Sequence record: PP418985.1
Origin: Escherichia phage UPWr_E1
Strand: one strand, 5' to 3'
DNA: 64,000 nucleotides
Each line of letters begins with the position of its first letter. The first letter of the stretch is position 1. Of this stretch, positions 19,780-54,322 are shown one piece after another. The notes beneath the pieces are model-generated. The model had not been told where the DNA came from. It saw only the letters and a program-made list of their open reading frames with translations, and did no database searches. The translations under genes were made by a program, and so were the position numbers.

Positions 19780-19944
19780 ATGAAAACTATGAATGTAAAC
19801 ATCCACGAAATCCATACCGAAGTATTCACCGAAGAAGACCAGTTTGGTGTATGGGTAAATCCTCATTCGATTACTATCGATATTCCTAATGACGATTATG
19901 ATCCGTTCTCTCTGATTAGCGAGATTAGTTTCAATGACTTCTGA
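19780..19944 (+). CDS. Hypothetical small protein, 54 aa
   Basis: ATG to TGA, overlaps next ORF start; below track cutoff. Confidence 0.3.
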   Translation: MKTMNVNIHEIHTEVFTEEDQFGVWVNPHSITIDIPNDDYDPFSLISEISFNDF

Positions 19945-20413
19945 AATTGATATCTATGCGGGTGGACCTTATCCATCGGGTGAATTGAGTAATTTCAATA
20001 AAAGACCATTCCGTCTATTTGGTTGCGATATTAACAGCACAGAAGGATTTTTACAGGGGCTAAGATTTAAGAACCCTCAGAGACAAAGAGAAATCTTTTT
20101 GATGCACGGTGGCAAAGCAAAAAGAACCGGAAGAACTGAAAAGATTGAGAATCACATGTTATATTTTCAGGGTCGCCAGATTCATCGAATGAGTGAGCAT
20201 TATTACAGACTGGTACATCTGGCATTTGTTACGATGGCACGGAATAACCCAGAATTTTGTAAAGCATTACTCGCTACAGGAAATAAGAAATTACGTCATA
20301 GTATAGGTGGAACTGATCCGTTAAAGACCATATTGACCGAATCGGAATTTTGTAGTATCCTCAATGATATTCGTGAACGTTTAACAAAACGAGGTGAAAA
20401 TGTCAATTCTTAA
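19934..20413 (+). CDS. NADAR (YbiA-like) domain protein, putative ADP-ribose processing enzyme
   Basis: 159 aa; IYAGGPYPSGELSNFNKRPF..STEGFLQGLRF matches NADAR core pattern; motif-level call only. Confidence 0.45.
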   Translation: MTSEIDIYAGGPYPSGELSNFNKRPFRLFGCDINSTEGFLQGLRFKNPQRQREIFLMHGGKAKRTGRTEKIENHMLYFQGRQIHRMSEHYYRLVHLAFVTMARNNPEFCKALLATGNKKLRHSIGGTDPLKTILTESEFCSILNDIRERLTKRGENVNS

Positions 20414-21896
20414 TATCATTAATCAGCTTGCAGCAACAGACAAAACATCTCTGAAAGAAAAGATTCTGAAAGAATCTGCAAGCAATGAAACACTGAAAGA
20501 ATGCTTTTATCTGGCATATTGCAAACAGGTTACGTTTGGCGTAAAGAAATACGATAAACCATCGCGTTATTCGTCTGTATTGTCTTTATCTGGTGCATTA
20601 CAGGTCTTTAAAAATAAACTTGCCACGCGTCAAGTAACTGGTAATGCAGCATTACAGCTAGTTACCGATACTCTGACTTGCTTGTCAGAAGATGATGCTA
20701 AAGTTGCAATGATGGTCCTGAATCGCGATCTAGAATGCGGTTGTTCCGCTACCACTGCAAACAAGGTATGGAAGAAACTGATCCCCCAGCAACCATGCCA
20801 CCTTGCATCGTCATATTCTGATAAGGCTATTGCTAATATCAAATATCCGGCATATGCACAACTTAAAAGTGATGGCGCTCGTGGTATGGCTGATATTGAC
20901 GGGGAAACATTAGCAATCTATACCCGTTCAGGTAATACCTATCAGGGACTTGATGATTTGTTTGCTGTTTTAGAGCGTCTACGAGGCCGTGGAATTGTTC
21001 TAGATGGCGAATTGGTATATATGCCTACCCTTTCGCAAACACCAGCGCAGAACTTCGTTGAAAGCGTTTATGATGGTACTCTGTCATGGATATTTGAAGA
21101 AGAGGAAATGCCATTAACGCCAGTAGCGGAAGCAGTAAAAGAATCCGTTGTTGCAGATCGTCAGACCGGAAATGGTATCCTCAACAAATCACTGAAAGGA
21201 ACTATTCCAAAAGAAGAAGCCCAATGTATTGTTTACACTGTCTGGGATGTTATCGACCGTGATGTGTATTACGGAAACGAGAAAGCAACGAAGCAATATA
21301 AAGATCGATTCGAAGAACTAAAACAGATTGTTGAAGAACTTAACGATCCTCGTGTGCAGATAATCGAAAATACTGTAGTTAACAATATCGATGAAGCTCG
21401 CGAAGTATATCATCGCTATGTAAACATGGGCTTAGAAGGTATTATCCTTAAAAATTTACATGGTGTATTTGAAGATCGTCGCAGTAAAGATCAGGTTAAA
21501 TTTAAAGAAGTGATTGACTTCGACGCGGAAATTGTTGATGTATATCCGCATAGTAAAGATCCTAATAAGGTAGGCGGTTTTACTGTCCGTAGCGCGTGCG
21601 GACGAATGATGACTAACACCGGATCGGGATTGACAGACACCACAACCGAAAAAGGTGATGATGGTATCGAACGTGTGATTCCGTTAGATCGTCGAAATGA
21701 ACTTGACCGAGAAATGTTATGGGCTGACCGTCATAACCTGATTGGAAAAGTCATCGAGATGACATGCAACGGGTATATCCGCAGCAAATCACGTAAAGAA
21801 GATGAACCGGAGTTCTCTTTATTTCTCCCGATCATCAAACGTATTCGCTACGACAAGACCACTGCAAATACAGTAAAAGAGGTATTCGATGTGTGA
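20400..21896 (+). CDS. 30: ATP-dependent DNA ligase
   Basis: 498 aa; adenylation motif KSDGAR, LDGELVY, EGIILKN; strong similarity to T4 gp30. Confidence 0.9.
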   Translation: MSILNIINQLAATDKTSLKEKILKESASNETLKECFYLAYCKQVTFGVKKYDKPSRYSSVLSLSGALQVFKNKLATRQVTGNAALQLVTDTLTCLSEDDAKVAMMVLNRDLECGCSATTANKVWKKLIPQQPCHLASSYSDKAIANIKYPAYAQLKSDGARGMADIDGETLAIYTRSGNTYQGLDDLFAVLERLRGRGIVLDGELVYMPTLSQTPAQNFVESVYDGTLSWIFEEEEMPLTPVAEAVKESVVADRQTGNGILNKSLKGTIPKEEAQCIVYTVWDVIDRDVYYGNEKATKQYKDRFEELKQIVEELNDPRVQIIENTVVNNIDEAREVYHRYVNMGLEGIILKNLHGVFEDRRSKDQVKFKEVIDFDAEIVDVYPHSKDPNKVGGFTVRSACGRMMTNTGSGLTDTTTEKGDDGIERVIPLDRRNELDREMLWADRHNLIGKVIEMTCNGYIRSKSRKEDEPEFSLFLPIIKRIRYDKTTANTVKEVFDV

Positions 21897-43875: not shown

Positions 43876-46419
43876 ATGTCTAACAAAATCAATGTATTAC
43901 ATCAAACAGAAGGTCCGGTTTATGGTTCCGTTGGTCGTCCACTTCTGTTAAAGATTGTTGTCAGTACAGCAGATTTTAAAGATTTTATAGCAGAATGGAA
44001 GCTGAACGGTGTAAATGTGCCAGCAGAACAAATTTCCGACGCGGATCAGTCTCTGTATATTGAGGAAATGCGAGAAAATCAATTTGGTACATATACATGT
44101 CACATTAAACTGAAAGACGAACCACAGGTCGGTGTAGATATTAAGCCTATTCTTGTACAGCGTAGATTTTTTATTGCACCGCAAGATCAGTCTCCGACGT
44201 ATATTAAAAAACGAATCGGCGAAGAATTAACCCTATTCGCAACACCAGCAATTGAACTAGGTCAACACCCAGAGTTTCAATGGTATCGAAATCATATTCC
44301 GGTAGAACCAGAAAAAATCGAGGACAACCGAACCGTTCATATTGCCCGTGTTGGTCTTATTGATTTTGGCAATTATACGTGTCGTGTTACTGTCCGTGGT
44401 GAACCAGCATCACAATATTGGATTAATCCAATTATTGTAGAAAAGAATGATACCCCTCCTGTAGTGCATCTTAGCGAAGAATATCCTAGCTCTATTACAG
44501 TAGCAGAGGATTCAGCGGTACATCTCAATGTACTTGTTACATCAGATGATAAAGTATCGCCTATTGAGTATACGTGGATTCATAACGGTAGGATTGTTAT
44601 CGAAGAAAACGGAAACTCTTTGGCAATTCCGCATATTCGAAAAGATCAGGAAGGTATCTGGCGTCTTGAGGTAAAACAAGGTGACACTACGGTGTATTCT
44701 AAAGATTGTCATATTGAGGTTGATAGTCAACCATTCTTTAGGATCACACGTCAACCGCAAACTCTTAACGTGTCTGGCGGTGCTTTGGGTTTATTCAGCG
44801 TTGATTATAGAACAAACTATTCACCTGTAAAGATCCAGTGGTATCGTAAAAAGAATACAGAACAGGAGTTTACACCAATTGTAGGTGAGACTAATAAAGA
44901 TCTTCATATTACACCAGCTACTACTGAATTAAACCGAGCACGCTACAAAGCTCGTATCACGTATGGCACAGACCAATACAGAGATTCAGAAGAAGCTGAA
45001 TTGCTAGTAGGTGAAGCATTAACTATTAGAATCACCAAACAACCACAAGCTCTACAAAACGTCCGAGTTTCTTCCTCACAGACGATCACTTGTGAAGCTG
45101 AAACAAACTATGAACATTATCGCTTAGATTATCAGTGGTATAAAGATAACGAATTAATGCCAGGCAAAACATCTAATGTATTGCACTTCTCATCAATCAA
45201 AAAGACAGATGAGGGGCAATATAAGTGTATTGCATCAATGGGTATTTCTGGTCATCGAATTACCGCAGAATCATCACCAGCACAGGTGACAGTAGACAAT
45301 TCAAAGGCATCACTGACTATCACTAAACAGCCAACTGGTGCAACAATTCGCACTGGTGGGTCGTGGTCTATTTCGGTCGAAGCAACATCAAACGATGCAC
45401 TACCGATTCGCTATCGCTGGTTTAAAGACGGCGAAGATCTATTCCCACAAGGCGTTGAACAAAAAAACGTTTACGGTGAAGACCATGCTCAACCTGATTC
45501 GACTGGTGTATATACTTGTCGCGTTTCGGTTGGTTTTGGTGATCACCGAGCGTCTCAAATGTCACATCCAGCAAGGGTGCTAATTAGCGATAATGTGGAA
45601 ATTGTGCCGAATGACTTACAGGTCACCGCACATCCTCATGATAATGACGTTAAGTATAATCAGCGTGTTATCTTAACAGCAAGATCTCAAAATAGCATCG
45701 GGTTAAAACCACATATTCAATGGAAAAAGGATGGTGTTGCTATTCCGGGTGCAAATTCAGAGACTTTAGTCATTGAGCACGCGAAACCATTGGATGCAGG
45801 GGTTTACACCGCAGATATTACCGCAGCAGAAAAAACGGTAACAACCAATCCGGCTACAGTTACTGTAGCAGAGCACAGCAATATTAATATCTTAAAACAT
45901 CCAGTGGATGTGGTTGCAAAAGAAGGACAAACCACCGACATTGTATTGGAAGCTCATGCGGAACATTCTGACGGTGAAACCGAAGTTAGTTATCAGTGGC
46001 ATAAAATTAAAGATGGCGTAGACACTGAAATAAGAGATGCAACAAATAAAACTTTAGTTATCCCTCATGCACAGATCAGCAAGCAAGCTCATCAAGCGAC
46101 CTATTACGCCGAGATAAAAGAAGAGAATGGACACGTTAAACATAGCGAAAAAGTTCGAGTGGTGTTTACTACCGCGAAATTAAAACGCTATGTTCACCCG
46201 ATCCCGTGGCGACGTACATCCTTCCAGTATCAAGGCTATTGGGTTATGGATGAGATTGATCGCTGTAATCGTGAAGGGCTTAACTGGCTTGAGGACTTTA
46301 CGCACACCAAATATCCAGAAGAGATCGAAACTATTGCTGCATCATTGCATCATTATTCAAATACTCATGTATTAGAATCTCGTAATGGTTATCTGGTTGA
46401 TGGTACTCAACTATTTTAA
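43876..46419 (+). CDS. hoc: Hoc-like capsid decoration protein with multiple Ig-like domains (long form)
   Basis: 847 aa; repeated I-set Ig-like units (W[YF]K[DN]G...Y.C); C-terminal capsid-binding-like YVHPIPWRRTSF domain shared with next gene. Confidence 0.65.
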   Translation: MSNKINVLHQTEGPVYGSVGRPLLLKIVVSTADFKDFIAEWKLNGVNVPAEQISDADQSLYIEEMRENQFGTYTCHIKLKDEPQVGVDIKPILVQRRFFIAPQDQSPTYIKKRIGEELTLFATPAIELGQHPEFQWYRNHIPVEPEKIEDNRTVHIARVGLIDFGNYTCRVTVRGEPASQYWINPIIVEKNDTPPVVHLSEEYPSSITVAEDSAVHLNVLVTSDDKVSPIEYTWIHNGRIVIEENGNSLAIPHIRKDQEGIWRLEVKQGDTTVYSKDCHIEVDSQPFFRITRQPQTLNVSGGALGLFSVDYRTNYSPVKIQWYRKKNTEQEFTPIVGETNKDLHITPATTELNRARYKARITYGTDQYRDSEEAELLVGEALTIRITKQPQALQNVRVSSSQTITCEAETNYEHYRLDYQWYKDNELMPGKTSNVLHFSSIKKTDEGQYKCIASMGISGHRITAESSPAQVTVDNSKASLTITKQPTGATIRTGGSWSISVEATSNDALPIRYRWFKDGEDLFPQGVEQKNVYGEDHAQPDSTGVYTCRVSVGFGDHRASQMSHPARVLISDNVEIVPNDLQVTAHPHDNDVKYNQRVILTARSQNSIGLKPHIQWKKDGVAIPGANSETLVIEHAKPLDAGVYTADITAAEKTVTTNPATVTVAEHSNINILKHPVDVVAKEGQTTDIVLEAHAEHSDGETEVSYQWHKIKDGVDTEIRDATNKTLVIPHAQISKQAHQATYYAEIKEENGHVKHSEKVRVVFTTAKLKRYVHPIPWRRTSFQYQGYWVMDEIDRCNREGLNWLEDFTHTKYPEEIETIAASLHHYSNTHVLESRNGYLVDGTQLF

Positions 46420-46426
46420 TATTATT

Positions 46427-46446
46427 GGTCGCCCTTCGGGGCGACC
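46427..46446 (+). other. UUCG-tetraloop RNA hairpin between the two hoc-like genes
   Basis: ggtcgccc-ttcg-gggcgacc; no clear T-run. Confidence 0.35.
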
Positions 46447-46463
46447 TTAACGGAGTTATTTTT

Positions 46464-47696
46464 ATGGCATTTACAGTAGCACTAAAATCAAATAAAAAAT
46501 GTTTCCTTGCTGGCGATACATTTAAATTAACGGCTACATTAGCTGGGGTGGAAGATGGTCCGGTCCCATCAAATGTTACCTATGCATGGACTAAAAATGA
46601 TCAGCCAATTGAAAATGAATCAAATGTATTAACGGTCTCTAACGCAACAGCCGAGAGCGCCGGAAAATATAAAGTATCCGTTACTGACACAGACACACAA
46701 GAAGTGGTAGAATCTGCGGTTGTGTCAATGGCAGAAGCAGAATTAGTAGTTAAAATTAATCATCCATCTAGCTACGTCGCATTCGATGAGGCGGTAGAAT
46801 TAACAACTACGGTTTCATATTCAACCGGATTTGCACCGTCTAGCAATTACCAGTTGCATTATAAATGGGAACAAGATCAAACAAATTTAAACCATAGCGA
46901 AAGCACATTATCGATCAGCAACTTCGTCGATGACAACAATGGCGTTTATAAGGTTACTGTATGGGGCGAGTCAGAAACATCAGCGGACAGCGCCAGTGTT
47001 AAACTTGCAGCAATCTCTATATCTGTAGTTGAAGATGTACCACTGGCAAAAACCGTCGCAATGGGTAAACCGATCACACTACCTTATCGCACGATGGGTG
47101 TTTCTATCGGTGACACGTCAGGTCTTCCGGCATTATCAACTAAACAGTCATGGTATTTGCAGCGAGAAGGACAACCGCGCCCGACACTGATCGGGAGTGA
47201 GGTTGGGGAGGCATTGGAAGGGTTTTCTATCATGCCTAACGGCTATTTGCACAAAGAAGCTGCAACAATGGACGACACCGCTAACTTTTGGTGTATCGTA
47301 GAGTTGCTTCAAGAAATTGACGGGCAGCCAGTACCAATCGAAGAAAAAGGTAGCTCTCATTGCGCACTGGAAGTTGTAGAATCACTTCATAAGATGTTCC
47401 GGTATGTGCACCCGATCCCGTGGCGCAAAACTTCGTTTATCTATATTGGATGGTGGGTATTCGACGAGATCGTTAAATTCAATGAGGCAGGGTTAGAATG
47501 GAGAAACCGTGAAGTTTACGAGGATAGCAAATATGCAAGCGACATCGAGACGATCGCGGCAGCGGAAGAAAAATATAGTGATTGCACTTGCATGGAATCT
47601 CGCAATGGTTTCATGTATCAGTCCAAAGAGTTCCATAAACTGGACCGAGAGACATTAGAGCGTGTCCTGCGCATTCGTGAAACGCCTCCTGCTTAA
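46464..47696 (+). CDS. Second Hoc-like protein (short form)
   Basis: 410 aa from MAFTVAL; Ig-like repeats plus the same C-terminal YVHPIPWRKTSF domain. Confidence 0.6.
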   Translation: MAFTVALKSNKKCFLAGDTFKLTATLAGVEDGPVPSNVTYAWTKNDQPIENESNVLTVSNATAESAGKYKVSVTDTDTQEVVESAVVSMAEAELVVKINHPSSYVAFDEAVELTTTVSYSTGFAPSSNYQLHYKWEQDQTNLNHSESTLSISNFVDDNNGVYKVTVWGESETSADSASVKLAAISISVVEDVPLAKTVAMGKPITLPYRTMGVSIGDTSGLPALSTKQSWYLQREGQPRPTLIGSEVGEALEGFSIMPNGYLHKEAATMDDTANFWCIVELLQEIDGQPVPIEEKGSSHCALEVVESLHKMFRYVHPIPWRKTSFIYIGWWVFDEIVKFNEAGLEWRNREVYEDSKYASDIETIAAAEEKYSDCTCMESRNGFMYQSKEFHKLDRETLERVLRIRETPPA

Positions 47697-47743: not shown

Positions 47744-47771
47744 TTGACAGTGTGATTTAGTGGCTTATAAT
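47744..47771 (+). promoter_or_regulatory. Early promoter
   Basis: TTGACA-16-TATAAT. Confidence 0.5.
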
Positions 47772-47891: not shown

Positions 47892-48089
47892 ATGAATGAG
47901 ATTGTACGATTGATCAAAGAAACACCAATCGAGATGTATTTTCTGGCTTTGGTTGCAACAATGGTCTATCAGCTAGTCGCATGTCATGTATGGAAATCAG
48001 AAAATGCGTTTATCCGGTTTTTTGGTACTGTCATGATCCAGTTTCCGGTACTGATCACTATCCTGTTAATCGTCAATGAGGCGAAGTAA
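47892..48089 (+). CDS. Small membrane protein, 65 aa
   Basis: RBS gaggtgaag; two hydrophobic segments. Confidence 0.5.
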   Translation: MNEIVRLIKETPIEMYFLALVATMVYQLVACHVWKSENAFIRFFGTVMIQFPVLITILLIVNEAK

Positions 48090-48364
48090 TGGACAAGAAA
48101 ACAGCGTTAATGGTTTACATGCTACGCGAAGACCACGGTCTTAATTTTGTTGATATTGCTAAAAAGATTGGCGGGTTCAGCGGACAAGATGCGGCTAAGG
48201 CATGGTTGATGGTAAAAGATGCACGAGAGGCTTACGCCAACCGTGAAAAGGTTGTTTATCGTAAACACCACATCAACAAAAAATTTAAAAATAAAGTTCA
48301 AAAACGTGTTGACAAGCCAAATAACACTGTTATAATGGACGCATTCAAACGGGCAATGTCCTGA
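48089..48364 (+). CDS. Small basic protein, possible helix-turn-helix DNA-binding protein
   Basis: 91 aa; LNFVDIAKKIGGFSGQDAAKAW segment; lysine-rich C-terminus. Confidence 0.4.
   Translation: MDKKTALMVYMLREDHGLNFVDIAKKIGGFSGQDAAKAWLMVKDAREAYANREKVVYRKHHINKKFKNKVQKRVDKPNNTVIMDAFKRAMS
48309..48336 (+). promoter_or_regulatory. Early promoter inside 3' end of upstream ORF
   Basis: TTGACA-16-TATAAT. Confidence 0.45.
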
Positions 48365-48410: not shown

Positions 48411-48848
48411 ATGAAATTCCGCAAAAACCACGTAGCAATGAAAAAAGCAATGTTTGAAGCATTCAAAGCAGTTGATCAGGGCGGTGTTACTCTGATTGAG
48501 CAAATTAATGTTGATGTTTGGCAGTCTCCGGCGATCACTTGCTCACGTCTGGCGACGGCTGGTCTTCTGAATGTTCACAGCTCTACAGCATACGACGAAG
48601 CATTGCAAGTTATTAAGGCTTTCGCTGGCGACGTTACCAGCAAGTGGGTCTATGAGAATAAAGGTGAAATTGCGGTTGCTCACGTAGGCAACAATATCCA
48701 GATGGAAATCAAGATTAAGGAAGGGTCTAAACGCAATCAGATGCTTGTTCGCTTCCAGCCATACAAAACTAACGTAGTGCCGGATGATCTGGTCATCTCT
48801 AAGAGTAATGTTACCATTCGCCGAAATCAGATCGTTATCAACAAATAA
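48411..48848 (+). CDS. Hypothetical protein, 145 aa
   Basis: ORF with RBS agaggtga. Confidence 0.55.
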   Translation: MKFRKNHVAMKKAMFEAFKAVDQGGVTLIEQINVDVWQSPAITCSRLATAGLLNVHSSTAYDEALQVIKAFAGDVTSKWVYENKGEIAVAHVGNNIQMEIKIKEGSKRNQMLVRFQPYKTNVVPDDLVISKSNVTIRRNQIVINK

Positions 48849-48857
48849 TTAACATTA

Positions 48858-48881
48858 GCCGTCCTTCGGGGCGGCTTTTTT
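48858..48881 (+). terminator. Rho-independent terminator
   Basis: gccgtcc-ttcg-gggcggc followed by tttttt. Confidence 0.6.
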
Positions 48882-48934: not shown

Positions 48935-48960
48935 TGATTAAATTATGATCAAAACGAAGA
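48935..48960. repeat. 26-bp direct repeat, copy 1, in AT-rich intergenic region
   Basis: tgattaaattatgatcaaaacgaaga; same 26-mer at 49084. Confidence 0.7.
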
Positions 48961-49083
48961 AAGATCTTTAGAACATAGAAAATGTATCTTTGATTAATTA
49001 TTAATCACCACATATTGTAACGCAAATGTTATACTCCGTAGGAGTTCGCGAAGCGATATCCTTTTGTGTAGTTTTTACATATA

Positions 49084-49109
49084 TGATTAAATTATGATCA
49101 AAACGAAGA
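49084..49109. repeat. 26-bp direct repeat, copy 2
   Basis: Identical 26-mer; flanks also similar (tttacatat). Confidence 0.7.
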
Positions 49110-49262
49110 CTTATCTTATAGAATAATAAAAATTTGTTTCGAACATTTATTAATCAATTACTAGAAGTGTTTTATTGCTCGCTGTGCTCGCTTCCGCTAC
49201 GCGGATACTTGTATTTGTTATTAACTTGTAGTATGATATTGCTTTCTATGGAGGAAAATATT

Positions 49263-49850
49263 ATGTTTGACCAGTTACAAGATCTATTTGGAGTAAAACC
49301 ACTTCGTAGATGTGCTTTAATCGGCTCTAGAAAAGCGCCTAGCGACATTTTGATAATGGCTAGTACCATTGGGAGGGTATTGTCAGAAAATCGCGTTGTA
49401 GCGCATTCTGGAGGGGCTTACGGTATGGACAATGCTTTCATGAAGTATTACGATCCAGATTATAGAAAAATTTTCATTCCAAATTGGAAGTTTTATGACC
49501 ACAAGCATAACGGTCATGATGTGATTGCATGGCAAACCTTAGAACAAAAGAATCTGGCGATGGATGAATTAGAACACGTTTATGATAATCCTCGTTCTAT
49601 ACCGTTATACATGCAAAATTTATTTTCTAGAAATGTTGCTCAAGTCTTAGGTGAGACACTTGATGATCCTGTAGATTGTGTGTTATTCTGGGCGAAAGAA
49701 GTTAATGGAATCGTTTCGGGAGGAACTCGAATTGCTGTTTATGTTGCCCGTAGACATGGGATACCATGTTTTAACTTATATCATCAAGAAAATAGATCCG
49801 CCGTCGAAAAAATCTTGGGCGGATCTGATTTGTCTTGGTTAGATATTTAG
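49263..49850 (+). CDS. DprA/Smf-like Rossmann-fold protein
   Basis: 195 aa from ATG after RBS ggagga; ALIGSRKAP..VAHSGGAYGMD and NLFSRNV..SGGTRIAV match DprA core motifs. Confidence 0.45.
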   Translation: MFDQLQDLFGVKPLRRCALIGSRKAPSDILIMASTIGRVLSENRVVAHSGGAYGMDNAFMKYYDPDYRKIFIPNWKFYDHKHNGHDVIAWQTLEQKNLAMDELEHVYDNPRSIPLYMQNLFSRNVAQVLGETLDDPVDCVLFWAKEVNGIVSGGTRIAVYVARRHGIPCFNLYHQENRSAVEKILGGSDLSWLDI

Positions 49851-51092
49851 TTAAGCGTTGTCAATCTCAAGTGGTGGCAGTTCGATTCCTAAAATGTAGG
49901 ACATTTCAGAGCGTCCAGCCATTTTACCCCAATCGTCACCCTTGATGATCTGGTGTTCTTCCTGATCAACTTTTGATGTATATGGGTTGACAGAGAGTGA
50001 ATAACGATTCATAATAGCTACATGATGCTGGAAGCTATTAGGATCAATTACGCTCTTATACGCGCCAGCGCCATCGGCTTCTGTGTATGGGGAGTAGAAC
50101 AGCGAACCTACGCTCTCCATATCACCGATCATGTGCTTACAGCCAACTAGCATATAATCGAACGGCGTTACCGTGTCTGCGTACACTTCCAGACCGCAAC
50201 GTAGACGTCCTTCGCTTAGAGCGTTGTCGGTTTCTTCCATCCATCCGGTAGACTGCAACAGACCAACTACGCGAGAAGATGCTAAAACGTATGTGCCAGC
50301 AAAGGAGGAAGTACGCAACATTTGATTGCTCATTTCGCAAGCATAGCGGTAAAGTTCACGAGCTTGTTTTGGTGCATCCTGAACGCCAACGAGAGAAAGT
50401 ACACCATCAGTGGTGATTCCTTTAATTTTATAGCGAGTTGATACAGTGATCAACTTCTGCATAATATCTTTGTTGATCTCTTCGGAAGCGACAGTAGCCA
50501 GAAGGTCGATCACAGAATTTTCAGAATTGATTTGGCTTGCCTCAAGATCCTGCATTAATTCAGTGGTGAACGAGGTTTTCAGTTTACGAGAACCTACATT
50601 AACTTGCCACTTGTCAAACTGCATAGAGGTAGACGCAATTTCGGTGTTTTTATCTTCAAAGTATTCTACCGATGCACAATCGCTATAGAAACGAATTTTG
50701 TTTGTCATTACGCCTTTAAAGATCGCAGCTTCTGGAGTTGCGGAATCTTCGCTAACTCGACCAGCAACAACAGCTTGATAAACTACGTCGCCAGATTTAA
50801 ACAGATCACCGATCTTGTATTCTTTTTCCTGTGAAAATTCTTCGATCTCTGTACGATCACCAGCCGCGCCACCGTAGGTTGCAGCAGTTCGGAAAGTCAT
50901 CTGACCATCACGATTAAGATAACGTAGGCCGTACAATGCAGATACTGGTTGATCCGTTGGCTGGATTGCTACCAGATCAGAGAAAATCAGGTTGTTTACC
51001 GCGCGAGTTAATGATAATAGTTGCGGTCGCGCTGTCTGGTTAGCTACTGAGGAAGTAGATTCCCGCAACAGTTCAGTAAAAATATGAGTCAT
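49851..51092 (-). CDS. 24: Head vertex protein gp24
   Basis: 413 aa from MTHIFTELL; gp23-like capsid fold; position downstream of gene 23. Confidence 0.75.
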   Translation of the reverse strand: MTHIFTELLRESTSSVANQTARPQLLSLTRAVNNLIFSDLVAIQPTDQPVSALYGLRYLNRDGQMTFRTAATYGGAAGDRTEIEEFSQEKEYKIGDLFKSGDVVYQAVVAGRVSEDSATPEAAIFKGVMTNKIRFYSDCASVEYFEDKNTEIASTSMQFDKWQVNVGSRKLKTSFTTELMQDLEASQINSENSVIDLLATVASEEINKDIMQKLITVSTRYKIKGITTDGVLSLVGVQDAPKQARELYRYACEMSNQMLRTSSFAGTYVLASSRVVGLLQSTGWMEETDNALSEGRLRCGLEVYADTVTPFDYMLVGCKHMIGDMESVGSLFYSPYTEADGAGAYKSVIDPNSFQHHVAIMNRYSLSVNPYTSKVDQEEHQIIKGDDWGKMAGRSEMSYILGIELPPLEIDNA

Positions 51093-51339: not shown

Positions 51340-52272
51340 TTATGGAGAATTTGGGGTTAATTCAGGGAACAGCGTGCCAAAACCAAAATTACCGCTAGCG
51401 TCACGCTGGAATGTCATAACAAGGTCGACATAAACCGGATCTGTAAATCTATCAAATCTATCCGACCCAATATCAACCATGAACGCTAATTTAATCTCAT
51501 TAGAATTTGAGATCGCAGCGTCAGCACATGCACCAAAAATTACCTGAGTATCTTTTGCCGTATATGCATTGACCTGTATGTTGGTTGGTTTCATTACATC
51601 GTTAGACAAACCAGATAGTTCTACTCGTCCATTAAATGACGCCAGACTTTGACCACCGCCTAGATAATGAATATGACCACCTTGTGAAGATTGTGTCCAG
51701 TCCATTAGCATAACCTTAAATCTAGCCTCAAAACGCCCTTCCACGTAATATCGACCAGTTTCAAAGTTTTGTCTAATTGGTGTCCATGTGATGTGTGGTT
51801 TTCCGCTTACAGGATCGACAAGAGTCACACCTACGGCTGGCTTAATACTGACACTATCAAATGAACGTGATAGCCAATTCCATGTTTGATTGTCTAGGTT
51901 TGGCAATTGTGGAATATTCAATCCATCTAATCGGCTGTGTGCTCGTGCTGCTTCCGATTCTGCGGTAGTCGCTTTAGTCAGTGCATCAGTTGCTTTGCTC
52001 ATGGATTGCCCTGCCGTTCGATCGGCAACATCAGCAGTTGATTTTGCAATCTCTGCCGTTCGATGTGCTGAACTTGCTGTTTCTGTTATTACGTCATCGC
52101 ACGCAATAACAAAATCAATTACAGGATCGATCAATTGAGTGTTGATTGAGTTGGAAATTCGTTCAACATCACTTTCCATTAGAGCATTAGATTCATTTCC
52201 TGTGAAATGAGTAATTTCACCTTGAACAAAATCATTTTGCAACTTGCTGATCTTTGCTTTAATATCGGTCAT
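51340..52272 (-). CDS. Fiber-like protein (helical N-terminus, beta-rich C-terminal domain)
   Basis: 310 aa; Ala/Thr-rich helical N-terminal third then globular domain; RBS GGGTGA. Confidence 0.55.
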   Translation of the reverse strand: MTDIKAKISKLQNDFVQGEITHFTGNESNALMESDVERISNSINTQLIDPVIDFVIACDDVITETASSAHRTAEIAKSTADVADRTAGQSMSKATDALTKATTAESEAARAHSRLDGLNIPQLPNLDNQTWNWLSRSFDSVSIKPAVGVTLVDPVSGKPHITWTPIRQNFETGRYYVEGRFEARFKVMLMDWTQSSQGGHIHYLGGGQSLASFNGRVELSGLSNDVMKPTNIQVNAYTAKDTQVIFGACADAAISNSNEIKLAFMVDIGSDRFDRFTDPVYVDLVMTFQRDASGNFGFGTLFPELTPNSP

Positions 52273-52287
52273 GAATCACCCCGCTAA

Positions 52288-54006
52288 TTATTGTGCTTGC
52301 TCTGGAAGTGCTTGTATATTTTCTATAGTAGCACCCCATTTAACGGCATTTAAACGAGCTTTGTGCATATCGTCTTCTCCGACTATTGCCGCAAAACCCT
52401 TTTTAGCGTGGAAATTCGCCCATGTGTTATATGCTAGTGCACCTACGCGTTTTGCTGTGTCGTGTTCAACTTCATCAACCATCAGCATTGTGCGGAAAGG
52501 TGCAAATGCTACATCTGGGTTATCGTCTTGTGTCCATGAACCACCATTAAACGACACCTGCCACCTGAACATCTCACCAGACGGAATTTGATTAATTCTC
52601 AACTTTAGAGATCTTGTTTTCTGGTTTTTCTGAGTTACGTCTAGTGGAACCTGATATCTAGCCGCTTGTCGTTCTCTACCATCATTCATCCTATGCCATG
52701 CGGTAACAACAAGCATAACCGGAATTGTGTTTGATGTTTTAATAAAACTAACATCAACTAAAAGTTCCATATCATAGCTACCAGATTTAGGCGCAACCCA
52801 CCAATGGTCGGCATCAGCTTGTCGATCTGGCTCTTTAATCTGTGGTGTGCATCCATAGTTATCATGAATGACATACTTCCACGGAATGTAAAAAGCACCA
52901 CCGCCAGTTCCTGGATTTGTAACTTCGAGTAGATTTTGTGCAGTGGTAAACACGCTTGACACGCGAGGGAAAGCATAAATGGTAGCACCACCAGTGTGAT
53001 CGCTGATCTGTAACCATTCGGTCCATCGATCAGTTCTCTTTGTATAGGAACGGTGATACATTACGCCATCAATGCTTGTTGCGATCTGCAATACATGATC
53101 TTTACATGCATGAACATCTACAGAACCATGTGTTTGTGTTCCATTTGGACGGTTTGCCGACCCCTCAAAGTAACAGAAACGGCCTTGTTTAGTCAAGGTG
53201 TTTAGGTCTAGCGTTTCTGGCGAAATTTCCGGTAGACGTTTACCCAGACTGGTTAACATCGCCTCCTGATCACCATTTAAACCACCGCCACCACTTCCTT
53301 CCCCGCTTTGAGAGTTCCACTCACGCCATGCACCATTGTGTCGGATGCGAGAGTAAACACCACCATCAATAGAACGGACCACTTGAAGAATGCTACCATC
53401 GACGACATATACATCTGCGGACCCCTTATTCGCCATCATTGGAGGTTTGCCATAGGTTGCATCACCTACCGGATAGCGTCCGGGTGATGTGGTTACATCC
53501 AGATTGTTAATTGGATTCGTCGTAGTCCATTTTACCTCAATTGCAGATAGACGCTGCGCAACGTTCGCTAATACTTCTGGTACTGGAAATACAAGAGATT
53601 CCTGTGTTCCGTCTGAGTACGTGACTTCTAGAGTCCAGTTGCGATCGTCCTCGGACAAATTCGCTTCGATTCTAGCAATGCCACGACCATTTTCGCCCTT
53701 CTCACCAGGAATACCCTGTTCACCCTGAATAACCCAGGTCATATCGACCCATTTTGATTTATCGTAGGGAGATTGTGCTGTTTTACCAGTCCATAATTGG
53801 AGTTTTTCGCCACAAACAATAATTGTTTTTAGTCTTTCCAATTCTGGAAAATGTTCGGTAAAATATTCATCCCTAGCTTCTTCATTTTCGAAACGGTGAG
53901 TATTTTTAATTCCGCTAGGTACGTTAGTTCCGATCTGAATACCACCACCAGAACAACCACCACTCACGGAACCAGCATTAATGATAGCTTGTGGATTTAG
54001 CTTCAT
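52288..54006 (-). CDS. Fiber/receptor-binding-like protein with short collagen-like G-X-Y stretch
   Basis: 573 aa from ATG (track ORF begins at an upstream TTG); GEQGIPGEKGENGRG triplets, glycine-rich linkers SGGCSGGG and GEGSGGGG. Confidence 0.55.
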   Translation of the reverse strand: MKLNPQAIINAGSVSGGCSGGGIQIGTNVPSGIKNTHRFENEEARDEYFTEHFPELERLKTIIVCGEKLQLWTGKTAQSPYDKSKWVDMTWVIQGEQGIPGEKGENGRGIARIEANLSEDDRNWTLEVTYSDGTQESLVFPVPEVLANVAQRLSAIEVKWTTTNPINNLDVTTSPGRYPVGDATYGKPPMMANKGSADVYVVDGSILQVVRSIDGGVYSRIRHNGAWREWNSQSGEGSGGGGLNGDQEAMLTSLGKRLPEISPETLDLNTLTKQGRFCYFEGSANRPNGTQTHGSVDVHACKDHVLQIATSIDGVMYHRSYTKRTDRWTEWLQISDHTGGATIYAFPRVSSVFTTAQNLLEVTNPGTGGGAFYIPWKYVIHDNYGCTPQIKEPDRQADADHWWVAPKSGSYDMELLVDVSFIKTSNTIPVMLVVTAWHRMNDGRERQAARYQVPLDVTQKNQKTRSLKLRINQIPSGEMFRWQVSFNGGSWTQDDNPDVAFAPFRTMLMVDEVEHDTAKRVGALAYNTWANFHAKKGFAAIVGEDDMHKARLNAVKWGATIENIQALPEQAQ

Positions 54007-54013
54007 ATAATAA

Positions 54014-54322
54014 TTACCCCCGTTTAGCAAGATACACGGTTACAGTAGAATCATTGGAAACAGATTTTACTTTTGCCCTAATAAATGACCATAATGTTTC
54101 AAACGCTCCACCATCAGTTGCATATTCATTACCATCAGCTTTCAATTCTGAAATAGTGAACCAACCTTTGCCATCTAAGGAACCTTCTAACGAGGCTTCC
54201 GCAATGACTTTTTGCCCTTCCCGTGCACCCTCTACGGTCATCTGTACTGTCATGTGCGTACTATGAACGCAGTTTACCGACGCGGAAACGGCTGGAGTTT
54301 TGGTCTTTATAAGTGTGTGCAT
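54014..54322 (-). CDS. Hypothetical protein, 102 aa
   Basis: RBS AAGGGGAG; preceded by a late promoter. Confidence 0.55.
   Translation of the reverse strand: MHTLIKTKTPAVSASVNCVHSTHMTVQMTVEGAREGQKVIAEASLEGSLDGKGWFTISELKADGNEYATDGGAFETLWSFIRAKVKSVSNDSTVTVYLAKRG

What the first reader, a model, noticed from the sequence alone, without database searches (positions are those of the whole stretch)
49263..49850. DprA/Smf-like protein encoded between the hoc region and gene 24
The 195-aa ORF matches the DprA Rossmann-fold core (..IGSRKAP...VAHSGGAYGMD.. and ..FSRN...SGGTRIAV..). DprA loads RecA on single-stranded DNA in bacteria. A phage copy might cooperate with UvsX/UvsY recombination or modulate host RecA. 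It is convergent with the late head genes.
Basis: inference. Interest (0 to 1): 0.45.

Follow-up and report, generated by a model that had tools for sequence, protein, structure and literature searches.

The report
Phage DprA-like nucleotide-binding (SLOG) protein
The ORF is a real, already-annotated phage gene for a stripped-down relative of the bacterial DNA-uptake protein DprA; it keeps DprA's DNA-base-binding pocket but lacks its RecA-loading parts, and its relatives are tied to enzymes that remove ADP-ribose, so a role in countering host defence is more likely than one in recombination.

Summary
ORF 49263-49850 (+), 195 aa, has a good ribosome-binding site and the quoted motifs. It lies between the hoc-like genes and gene 24, and its stop codon abuts that of gene 24.

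The window is a Krischvirus (RB49/Phi1 group). The protein is 99.5% identical to Phi1 ORF164, which RefSeq already names "DprA-like DNA recombination-mediator protein" (PHROG 768, E 2e-60).

Homology to the DprA Rossmann/SLOG core is real but distant:
- Pfam PF02481 scores 22.3 bits, below its cutoff of 29.6.
- hhalign against a DprA profile gives 94.9% probability.

Both published DprA ssDNA-binding signature motifs (G-S-R and L-x-x-R-N) are present and about 96-100% conserved in the family.

The protein is a bare single domain. It has no SAM or winged-helix domain, and the RecA/dimer interface is not conserved.

Across about 4,300 family representatives I found no recombinase among the recurrent neighbours. 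Instead there are repeated fusions to, or adjacency with, NADAR, Macro, DUF4326 and NadV/Prs, plus one RecJ fusion. The window phage also carries a gp30.3/AdfN NADAR gene.

Best reading: an ssDNA- or nucleotide-binding module working in ADP-ribose-linked counter-defence. This is inferred, not shown. Novelty is low.

The parts
49263..49850 (+). CDS for the 195-aa DprA-like SLOG-domain protein (equivalent to Phi1 ORF164; PHROG 768)
   Evidence: ORF and sequence. PHROG 768 E 2e-60 over residues 15-187. 99.5% identical to Phi1 YP_001469510. AlphaFold2 model with mean pLDDT 83.7 and an alternating strand/helix Rossmann-like topology.
49250..49254 (+). Shine-Dalgarno sequence GGAGG, 8 nt before the ATG
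   Evidence: Read directly from the sequence.
49323..49331 (+). Codons for G21-S22-R23, which is DprA signature motif 1 (G-S/T/A-R; HpDprA G50-R52)
   Evidence: Motif definition from PMC3950713. Conserved at 99/89/98% in the family. Aligned to the DprA GSR/GTR motif by HMMER and hhalign.
49407..49430 (+). Codons for S49-G-G-A-Y-G-M-D56, the glycine-rich SGGAxGxD loop (DprA SG(L/G)AxG(I/V)D)
   Evidence: G50 and D56 are invariant and S49, A52 and G54 are >=96% conserved. Aligned to the DprA SGxAxGID motif.
49620..49634 (+). Codons for L120-F-S-R123-N124, which is DprA signature motif 2 (F/L/Y-x-x-R-N/D; HpDprA F140-N144)
   Evidence: Motif definition from PMC3950713. R123 is 99-100% and N124 96% conserved. 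hhalign pairs the family RN with the DprA RNR.
49719..49727 (+). Codons for G153-G154-T155, the invariant loop equivalent to the DprA S-G-S loop (HpDprA G164). It resembles the LOG PGGxGTxxE motif but has Ala158 where LOG has the catalytic Glu.
   Evidence: Invariant in 121 sequences. G154 aligns with HpDprA chain position 160, which is residue G164. A158 is 95% conserved.
48857..48876 (+). Strong intrinsic-terminator-like hairpin ending the upstream transcription unit. It is followed by a 414-nt AT-rich spacer without a convincing sigma-70 or late promoter.
   Evidence: Terminator. Relaxed promoter scan and TATAAATA search found nothing convincing. This is context, not part of the protein.
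19934..20413 (+). gp30.3/AdfN-type NADAR gene of the same phage. It is a possible functional partner by inference only.
   Evidence: PF08010 E 6.5e-38. T4 gp30.3 is the DNA de-ADP-ribosylating anti-DarTG1 factor AdfN (PMC11825919). NADAR is the commonest fusion partner of this SLOG family.

Best explanation
The ORF encodes a minimal, stand-alone member of a large family of the SLOG (Smf/DprA-LOG) Rossmann-like superfamily. The family is carried by phages and plasmids, and its nearest characterised relative is the DprA Rossmann-fold domain. The protein retains the small basic pocket with which DprA grips one base of single-stranded DNA: G-S-R23, L120-x-x-R123-N124 and G153-G154 (shown by alignment). 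It lacks what makes DprA a recombination mediator: the SAM and winged-helix domains, the N-terminal extension of the fold, and the C-terminal strand and helix that carry the dimer and RecA contacts. Inferred mechanism: the protein binds a nucleotide base in ssDNA, or an ADP-ribosylated base or nucleotide, and acts in the phage's protection against NAD+-dependent host defence. The most plausible role is to recognise or expose ADP-ribosylated ssDNA made by DarT-type toxins for removal by ADP-ribosyl-glycohydrolases. In other elements such enzymes (NADAR, Macro, DUF4326) are fused or adjacent to this domain. In this phage a NADAR is encoded separately as gp30.3/AdfN. Homology, motif retention, missing parts and the context statistics are shown here. 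Ligand identity, ssDNA binding and the counter-defence role are inferred.
For: Family and fold:
- PHROG 768 E 2e-60.
- 86 of 121 family representatives hit PF02481, and none hit LOG, YpsA or YAcAr.
- The family profile ranks PDB sequences as HpDprA 2e-5, RpDprA 7.5e-5 and SpDprA 0.01, ahead of LOG 0.12 and Moco carrier protein 0.55.
- hhalign against a 5-sequence DprA profile gives 94.9% probability, E 4.6e-8, over 152 columns.

Pocket:
- Both published signature motifs (PMC3950713) are present and nearly invariant.

Link to ADP-ribose:
- Among the top 150 representatives, fusions include NADAR x5, DUF4326 x1 and RecJ x1.
- One plasmid protein is a SLOG-Macro fusion by Pfam (PF01661 E 8e-10). 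A second plasmid hit is annotated as macro-domain-containing but was not checked.
- Among 53 bacterial loci with a called SLOG ORF there are fusions to DUF4326 (x4), NADAR (x1) and an N4-gp14-like domain (x1).
- A Macro gene lies within 10 kb in 13 of 73 viral loci, and 8 of those 13 are within 2 kb (binomial P 0.001 against uniform placement).
- NADAR and N4-gp14-like genes are adjacent in further loci.
- In Pakpunavirus the order is Prs, NadV, a hypothetical gene, a Macro-like gene, then the SLOG gene. In KP15, NadV lies 1.3 kb downstream.
- Iyer et al. 2022 independently reported viral SLOG fusions to Macro, NADAR and DUF4326 (PMC9503650).
- NADAR and DarG-type Macro enzymes act on ADP-ribosylated ssDNA, and T4 gp30.3 is an anti-DarTG1 factor.
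- The window phage encodes gp30.3.

Other context:
- The family also occurs on conjugative plasmids, which enter cells as ssDNA. One copy lies near an SRAP gene.
Against: - No experiment exists on any member of this family.
- In this phage the gene is not adjacent to any ADP-ribose-related gene. gp30.3 lies 29 kb away, and T4 has gp30.3 without (as far as I know; not tested here) a homolog of this gene.
- Most family members (roughly three quarters of the viral loci examined) have no recognisable ADP-ribose gene within 10 kb.
- The neighbour statistics are not phylogenetically corrected. At the lineage level only 4 of 9 Macro-linked lineages have the Macro gene within 2 kb.
- The window protein is mildly acidic (pI 6.4), although the family median pI is 8.5.
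- The same pocket could bind a soluble nucleotide rather than DNA.
- Expression timing is unknown, because no clear promoter was found.
Confidence: 0.4

Rival explanations
1. A genuine DprA-type recombination mediator. The protein binds phage or host ssDNA and loads RecA, or cooperates with UvsX/UvsY.
For: DprA is the closest characterised family by every measure. The ssDNA-binding motifs are conserved. One family member is fused to RecJ, an ssDNA exonuclease. The DprA-like antitoxin ShosA binds ssDNA and RecA (PMC12961424).
Against: Scores are far below the curated DprA thresholds: 22.3 against 29.6 bits for Pfam and 14.4 against 191 for TIGR00732. There is no SAM or DML1 domain. The region aligned to SpDprA H260/Q264/E265 is V181/L185/G186 and is variable across the family. 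The L269 strand is absent (and the consensus). No recombinase appears among the 25 most recurrent close neighbours in 59 viral lineages (judged by eye plus Pfam on a subset). T4-type phages already have the dedicated mediator UvsY.
Confidence: 0.15
2. A sensor, sponge or N-glycosidase for soluble NAD+-derived immune signals (cADPR isomers, ADPr derivatives). This is what Iyer, Burroughs and Aravind proposed for viral SLOG domains. The protein would blunt Thoeris-like signalling rather than act on DNA.
Against: The family is structurally separate from the viral YspA/DUF2493 SLOG proteins. TM-scores are about 0.42 to those, against 0.73-0.80 within its own cluster. No family member hits the YpsA or YAcAr Pfam models. 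The conserved motifs are exactly those defined for ssDNA binding in DprA. The catalytic Glu of LOG is replaced by Ala. The RecJ fusion and the conjugative-plasmid context point to ssDNA.
Confidence: 0.25
3. An antitoxin mimic that neutralises DprA-PRTase toxin-antitoxin defence systems (ShosTA/PsyrTA) by substituting for the labile DprA-like antitoxin.
Against: The matches cover only the N-terminal 45 residues. ShosA needs its SAM domain, dimerisation and RecA binding for antitoxin activity, and all of these are absent or unconserved here. This idea does not explain the ADP-ribose-linked fusions.
Confidence: 0.05
4. A LOG-like nucleotide N-glycosidase belonging to the phage nucleotide-metabolism module.
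For: The fold is SLOG with a GGT loop. Neighbours in many phages are dCMP deaminase, ribonucleotide reductase, ThyA/ThyX, PhoH and DNA ligase.
Against: The LOG signature PGGxGTxxE is not met, because Ala158 (95% conserved) occupies the Glu position. No member hits PF03641. LOG structures rank below DprA.
Confidence: 0.05

Closest known systems
DprA/Smf Rossmann-fold domain (Pfam PF02481; structures 4LJK/4LJR of H. pylori, 3MAJ of R. palustris, 3UQZ of S. pneumoniae)
   Different: The protein is about 195 aa and a single domain. It lacks the roughly 35-residue N-terminal extension of the DprA fold, the SAM domain, the DML1/winged-helix domain and the terminal strand and helix that carry the dimer and RecA contacts. 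It has a family-specific insert (about residues 75-115) and extra conserved polar residues (Q127, N171, T155). It scores below the curated thresholds. Its genomic context is phage or plasmid with ADP-ribose-processing partners, not competence or recombination genes.
PHROG 768 / RefSeq 'DprA-like DNA recombination-mediator protein' of phages (for example Phi1 ORF164, KP15 gp208, Pakpunavirus orf14, phi92 gp047)
   Same: It is the same family: full-length match at E 2e-60, 99.5% identity to Phi1 ORF164, and BFVD structural cluster TM-scores of 0.73-0.80.
   Different: Nothing substantive. The database name implies a function that has not been tested for any member.
ShosA/PsyrA DprA-like antitoxins (PDB 8ZVA, 9VZO)
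   Same: The core is DprA-like and the Arg residues of the ssDNA pocket are conserved (ShosA R139/R234 correspond to R23/R123).
   Different: ShosA has a SAM domain, dimerises, binds RecA and is paired with a PRTase toxin. None of these applies here.
Viral YspA/cpYpsA-related (DUF2493, PF10686) and YpsA SLOG proteins, and the ThsA SLOG sensor
   Same: They belong to the same superfamily, are widespread in large phages, and share fusion partners (Macro, NADAR, DUF4326; PMC9503650).

Membership tests
SLOG (Smf/DprA-LOG) superfamily | Three-layer Rossmann-like fold with a nucleotide-contacting loop after strand 1 and Gly-rich loops | tested here: met
DprA/Smf (PF02481, TIGR00732) | Signature motif 1, G-S/T/A-R, in the loop after the first core strand (Wang et al. 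2014) | tested here: met
   G21-S22-R23 is present and 99/89/98% conserved in the family. It aligns to HpDprA G50-R52.
DprA/Smf (PF02481, TIGR00732) | Signature motif 2, F/L/Y-x-x-R-N/D, in the pocket helix | tested here: met
   L120-F-S-R123-N124 is present, with L 81%, R 99-100% and N 96% conserved.
DprA/Smf (PF02481, TIGR00732) | Score above the curated family thresholds | tested here: not met
   PF02481 scores 22.3 bits against a cutoff of 29.6, and only residues 15-60 align. TIGR00732 scores 14.4 against 191.15.
DprA/Smf (PF02481, TIGR00732) | Accessory domains (N-terminal SAM and/or C-terminal DML1 winged helix) and the extended Rossmann fold | tested here: not met
   The protein has 195 residues. 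The core spans residues 15-187 and only a 14-residue N-terminal helix precedes strand 1. hhalign starts at DprA-profile column 37 and ends in the helix after the last strand. These domains are not universal in DprA proteins; HpDprA, for example, lacks SAM.
DprA/Smf (PF02481, TIGR00732) | Dimerisation and RecA-interaction surface (SpDprA H260 and L269; E235, M238, D243, Q264, E265) | tested here: not met
   Residue numbers come from my own knowledge of Quevillon-Cheruel et al. 2012 and were checked against the 3UQZ sequence. H260, Q264 and E265 align to V181, L185 and G186 in a C-terminal segment with no family consensus, and the strand carrying L269 is absent. The alignment in this segment has low confidence.
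DprA/Smf (PF02481, TIGR00732) | ssDNA binding and RecA loading activity | not testable with these tools
   This needs EMSA and strand-exchange assays.
LOG (PF03641, cytokinin riboside 5'-monophosphate phosphoribohydrolase) | PGGxGTxxE motif with a catalytic Glu | tested here: not met
   The sequence here is S-G-G-T-R-I-A, and Ala158 (95% conserved) falls at the Glu position. None of 121 members hits PF03641.
YpsA / YspA-cpYpsA (PF06908, PF10686/DUF2493) | Match to the family profiles, or structural clustering with them | tested here: not met
PHROG 768 (phage DprA-like proteins) | Full-length profile match | tested here: met
   E 2e-60, 204.6 bits, residues 15-187 against profile positions 4-181 of 191.
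ShosA/PsyrA antitoxins | Full-length match and an adjacent PRTase (ShosT) or PsyrT toxin gene | tested here: not met
   The PADLOC hits score 17.9-20.8 bits and cover residues 15-61 only. The neighbours are gene 24, a 145-aa ORF of unknown function and gene 24.3.

The most novel reading that the evidence does not exclude
This stand-alone DprA-like SLOG protein is an uncharacterised counter-defence factor. It recognises ADP-ribosylated bases in phage ssDNA through the DprA base pocket. It then either hands them to the phage NADAR (gp30.3/AdfN) or itself helps to remove or tolerate the adduct. If so, it would define a new ssDNA-targeting component of anti-DarTG defence that phages and conjugative plasmids share.
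Probability: 0.2. Interest if true: 0.65.

Novelty: already known. Interest (0 to 1): 0.3.

Why it matters
More than 1,300 sequenced phages carry a gene whose database name asserts a recombination function that nobody has tested. The comparative evidence here points instead to the NAD+/ADP-ribose arms race. If the protein proves to be an ssDNA-directed partner of de-ADP-ribosylating enzymes, two things could follow:
- It could help explain what determines NADAR specificity in vivo, which published work describes as unknown.
- It would add a component to anti-DarTG counter-defence.

As a sequence finding it is not new. The gene is annotated in RefSeq, and the association of viral SLOG domains with ADP-ribose processing has been published.

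Tried and rejected
- The search for related loci with the 121-sequence alignment failed because no conserved stretch was found. I repeated it with a 21-sequence subset.
- The afdb50 fold library was unavailable.
- Rfam found no known RNA in the 414-nt upstream spacer.
- Strict and relaxed sigma-70 scans and a TATAAATA search found no convincing promoter, so expression timing could not be assigned.
- dN/dS against Phi1 was uninformative, with only 5 nucleotide differences.
- The N4-gp14-like partner domain (FVFGSNLxGxHGAGAA) has no Pfam or PDB sequence match and is PHROG 2072, function unknown.
- I rejected the LOG-type hydrolase reading (catalytic Glu missing), YpsA/YspA membership (no profile or structural clustering) and ShosA mimicry (N-terminal motif match only, no SAM domain, no toxin partner).
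- I did not treat the nearby uvsY and uvsW genes as functional linkage, because the arrangement is the conserved T4-type gene order.
- RNA ligase 2 adjacency in KP15-like phages probably also reflects position, since T4 rnlB occupies this slot (own knowledge). I did not use it as functional evidence.

Full report
**What is there.** An ATG at 49263 opens a 195-codon frame that ends at TAG 49848-49850. A GGAGG sequence lies 8 nt upstream.

The window matches Krischvirus phages (the RB49/Phi1/GEC-3S group) at about 96% nucleotide identity. The protein is 99.5% identical to Phi1 ORF164, which RefSeq names "DprA-like DNA recombination-mediator protein".

On the plus strand, the order upstream of the ORF is as follows:
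- two Hoc-like Ig-domain genes;
- a 65-aa ORF of unknown function (47892-48089);
- a 24.3 homolog (DUF2774);
- a 145-aa ORF of unknown function;
- a strong terminator at 48857-48876;
- a 414-nt AT-rich spacer.

Gene 24 converges on the minus strand, and its stop codon directly abuts the ORF's stop codon.

**Is it a real gene family?** Yes.
- tblastn finds it in 1,342 phage records from many host genera and in 21 plasmids, 12 of them conjugative.
- A profile search of 1.84 billion cluster representatives returns 4,315 proteins at E<=1e-3. Most are stand-alone proteins of about 180 aa.
- The nearly invariant residues are G21, S22, R23, P26, S49, G50, A52, G54, D56, P73, R123, N124, Q127, G130, G153, G154, T155, A158, A162 and N171.

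**Which known family is closest?** Every comparison puts DprA first, but only distantly.

| Comparison | Result |
|---|---|
| Pfam PF02481, single sequence | 22.3 bits (cutoff 29.6), residues 15-60 only |
| TIGR00732, single sequence | 14.4 bits (cutoff 191) |
| Pfam scan of 121 representatives | 86 hit PF02481, 16 hit LDcluster4, none hit LOG, YpsA or YAcAr |
| Family profile against PDB sequences | HpDprA 2e-5, RpDprA 7.5e-5, SpDprA 0.01, a LOG 0.12, Moco carrier 0.55 |
| hhalign against a DprA profile | 94.9% probability, E 4.6e-8, 152 columns, all motifs in register |
| Foldseek on the AlphaFold2 model (pLDDT 83.7) | HpDprA first at 8.7e-6 |

The DprA profile used for hhalign was built from E. 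coli Smf and four PDB sequences.

Among predicted viral structures, the protein sits in a tight cluster of phage "DprA-like" proteins with TM-scores of 0.73-0.80. That cluster is separate from the YspA/DUF2493 SLOG proteins, which give TM about 0.42.

So SLOG-superfamily membership is certain and DprA is the nearest clade.

**Membership in DprA proper.** Wang et al. (PMC3950713) defined two signature motifs for the ssDNA-binding DprA domain: G-S/T/A-R and F/L/Y-x-x-R-N/D. They contrasted these with the LOG motif PGGxGTxxE.

Both DprA motifs are present here (G21-S-R23 and L120-F-S-R123-N124) and are among the most conserved positions of the family. G154 aligns with HpDprA G164, which contacts the inserted base. 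The LOG catalytic Glu position is occupied by a conserved Ala.

Against membership:
- The curated thresholds are not reached.
- There is no SAM or DML1 domain, and the N-terminal extension of the DprA fold is missing.
- The positions aligned to pneumococcal H260, Q264 and E265 (V181, L185, G186) fall in a C-terminal segment that has no family consensus.
- The strand carrying L269 does not exist here. The residue roles come from my own knowledge of Quevillon-Cheruel et al. 2012.

I therefore file the protein as a DprA-clade SLOG domain and not as a DprA.

**What the relatives say about function.**

*Fusions.*
- Among the top 150 representatives, five are fused to NADAR, one to DUF4326 and one to RecJ. 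Two giant proteins combine this domain with YAcAr, LDcluster4 and NADAR domains.
- A plasmid protein is a SLOG-Macro fusion.
- Among 53 bacterial loci with a called SLOG ORF, there are four DUF4326 fusions, one NADAR fusion and one N4-gp14-like fusion.

*Neighbours in viral loci.* Of 80 metagenomic viral loci fetched, 73 had a called SLOG ORF; these fall into 59 lineages at 70% identity.
- A Macro gene lies within 10 kb in 13 loci, and within 2 kb in 8 of them.
- NADAR and N4-gp14-like genes lie close by in a few loci.
- NadV occurs in 9 loci and Prs in 6.

*Cultured phages.*
- Pakpunavirus has the order Prs, NadV, a hypothetical gene, a Macro-like gene, then the SLOG gene.
- KP15 has RNA ligase next to the SLOG gene and NadV 1.3 kb downstream.
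- An N4-like rhizobiophage has an N4-gp14-like gene about 600 bp downstream.

The remaining recurrent neighbours are nucleotide-metabolism and replication genes. I recognised no recombinase among them.

*Published background.*
- Iyer et al. (PMC9503650) reported the same fusion pattern for viral SLOG domains and proposed that they process or sense ADP-ribose derivatives.
- Since then, NADAR enzymes have been shown to remove ADP-ribose from guanine in ssDNA. T4 gp30.3 (AdfN) has been shown to neutralise DarTG1.
- The window phage has a gp30.3 gene at 19934-20413.

**Synthesis.** The DprA-like pocket for a base in ssDNA is conserved, and the partner enzymes act on ADP-ribosylated ssDNA or on ADP-ribose metabolites. 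Together these make an ssDNA- or nucleotide-binding role in ADP-ribose-linked counter-defence the best-supported mechanism (confidence 0.4).

The alternatives rank as follows:
- a soluble-signal sensor or hydrolase (0.25);
- a true recombination mediator (0.15);
- a ShosA-type antitoxin mimic (0.05);
- a LOG-like enzyme (0.05).

The main weaknesses are these:
- There is no experimental evidence for any family member.
- This phage has no local ADP-ribose partner gene.
- The neighbour counts are not phylogenetically corrected.
- Expression timing is unknown.

**Verdict.** The finding is correct as an observation. It is correct on homology and probably wrong, or at least unsupported, on function. 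The gene and its name are already in public annotation, so novelty is low and interest is modest at 0.3.

Noticed in passing
window 43876-46419 (+) and 46425-47696 (+): There are two tandem Hoc-like genes. One encodes an 847-aa protein with many Ig-like domains (Pfam Ig_3, I-set). The other encodes a 423-aa protein. Both have a similar Hoc-type C-terminus (YVHPIPWR.TSF.Y.G.WV.DEI). Phi1 has a single hoc gene at this position.
   Followed up: partly
window 51340-52272 (-) and 52288-54030 (-): Two extra genes (310 aa and 580 aa) lie between gene 24 and gene 23. The larger has a collagen-like run, GEQGIPGEKGENGRG. This 2.6-kb insert is present in only 4 of 57 matching Krischvirus records (SSG23, SFHK24, Brandy, G2248). 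Pfam gives only a sub-threshold Alanine_zipper hit (21.9 bits, cutoff 23.1) for the 310-aa protein and nothing for the 580-aa protein.
   Followed up: partly
window 19934-20413 (+): A homolog of gp30.3/AdfN (NADAR; PF08010 E 6.5e-38) lies immediately upstream of DNA ligase gene 30 (20394-21896). In T4 this protein is a DNA de-ADP-ribosylating anti-DarTG1 factor.
   Followed up: partly
window 48935-49007 and 49084-49156 (+): A 73-nt direct repeat occurs twice (73% identical, 149-nt spacing) in the 414-nt spacer upstream of the ORF. An imperfect 27-nt inverted repeat is also present (48990-49016 / 49131-49157). There is no Rfam match and no clear promoter. The spacer is about 97% identical in Phi1.
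   Followed up: partly
window 49848-49853: The stop codons of the convergent DprA-like ORF (TAG) and gene 24 (TAA on the minus strand) abut with no spacer and no terminator between them. Transcripts from either side would therefore run antisense into the other gene.
   Followed up: no
L004 5171-5545; P0094 C-terminus; L105 4767-5813: A family of unknown function resembling N4 gp14 (PHROG 2072; motif FVFGSNLxGxHGAGAA; no Pfam or PDB sequence match) is a recurrent neighbour and fusion partner of the DprA-like SLOG family. It may be another uncharacterised ADP-ribose-related domain.
   Followed up: partly
window 47744-47771 and 48309-48336 (+): Two perfect 12/12 sigma-70 consensus promoters (TTGACA-16-TATAAT) precede the small ORFs upstream (47892-48364 and 48411-48848). 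These look like typical T4-type early promoters.
   Followed up: no
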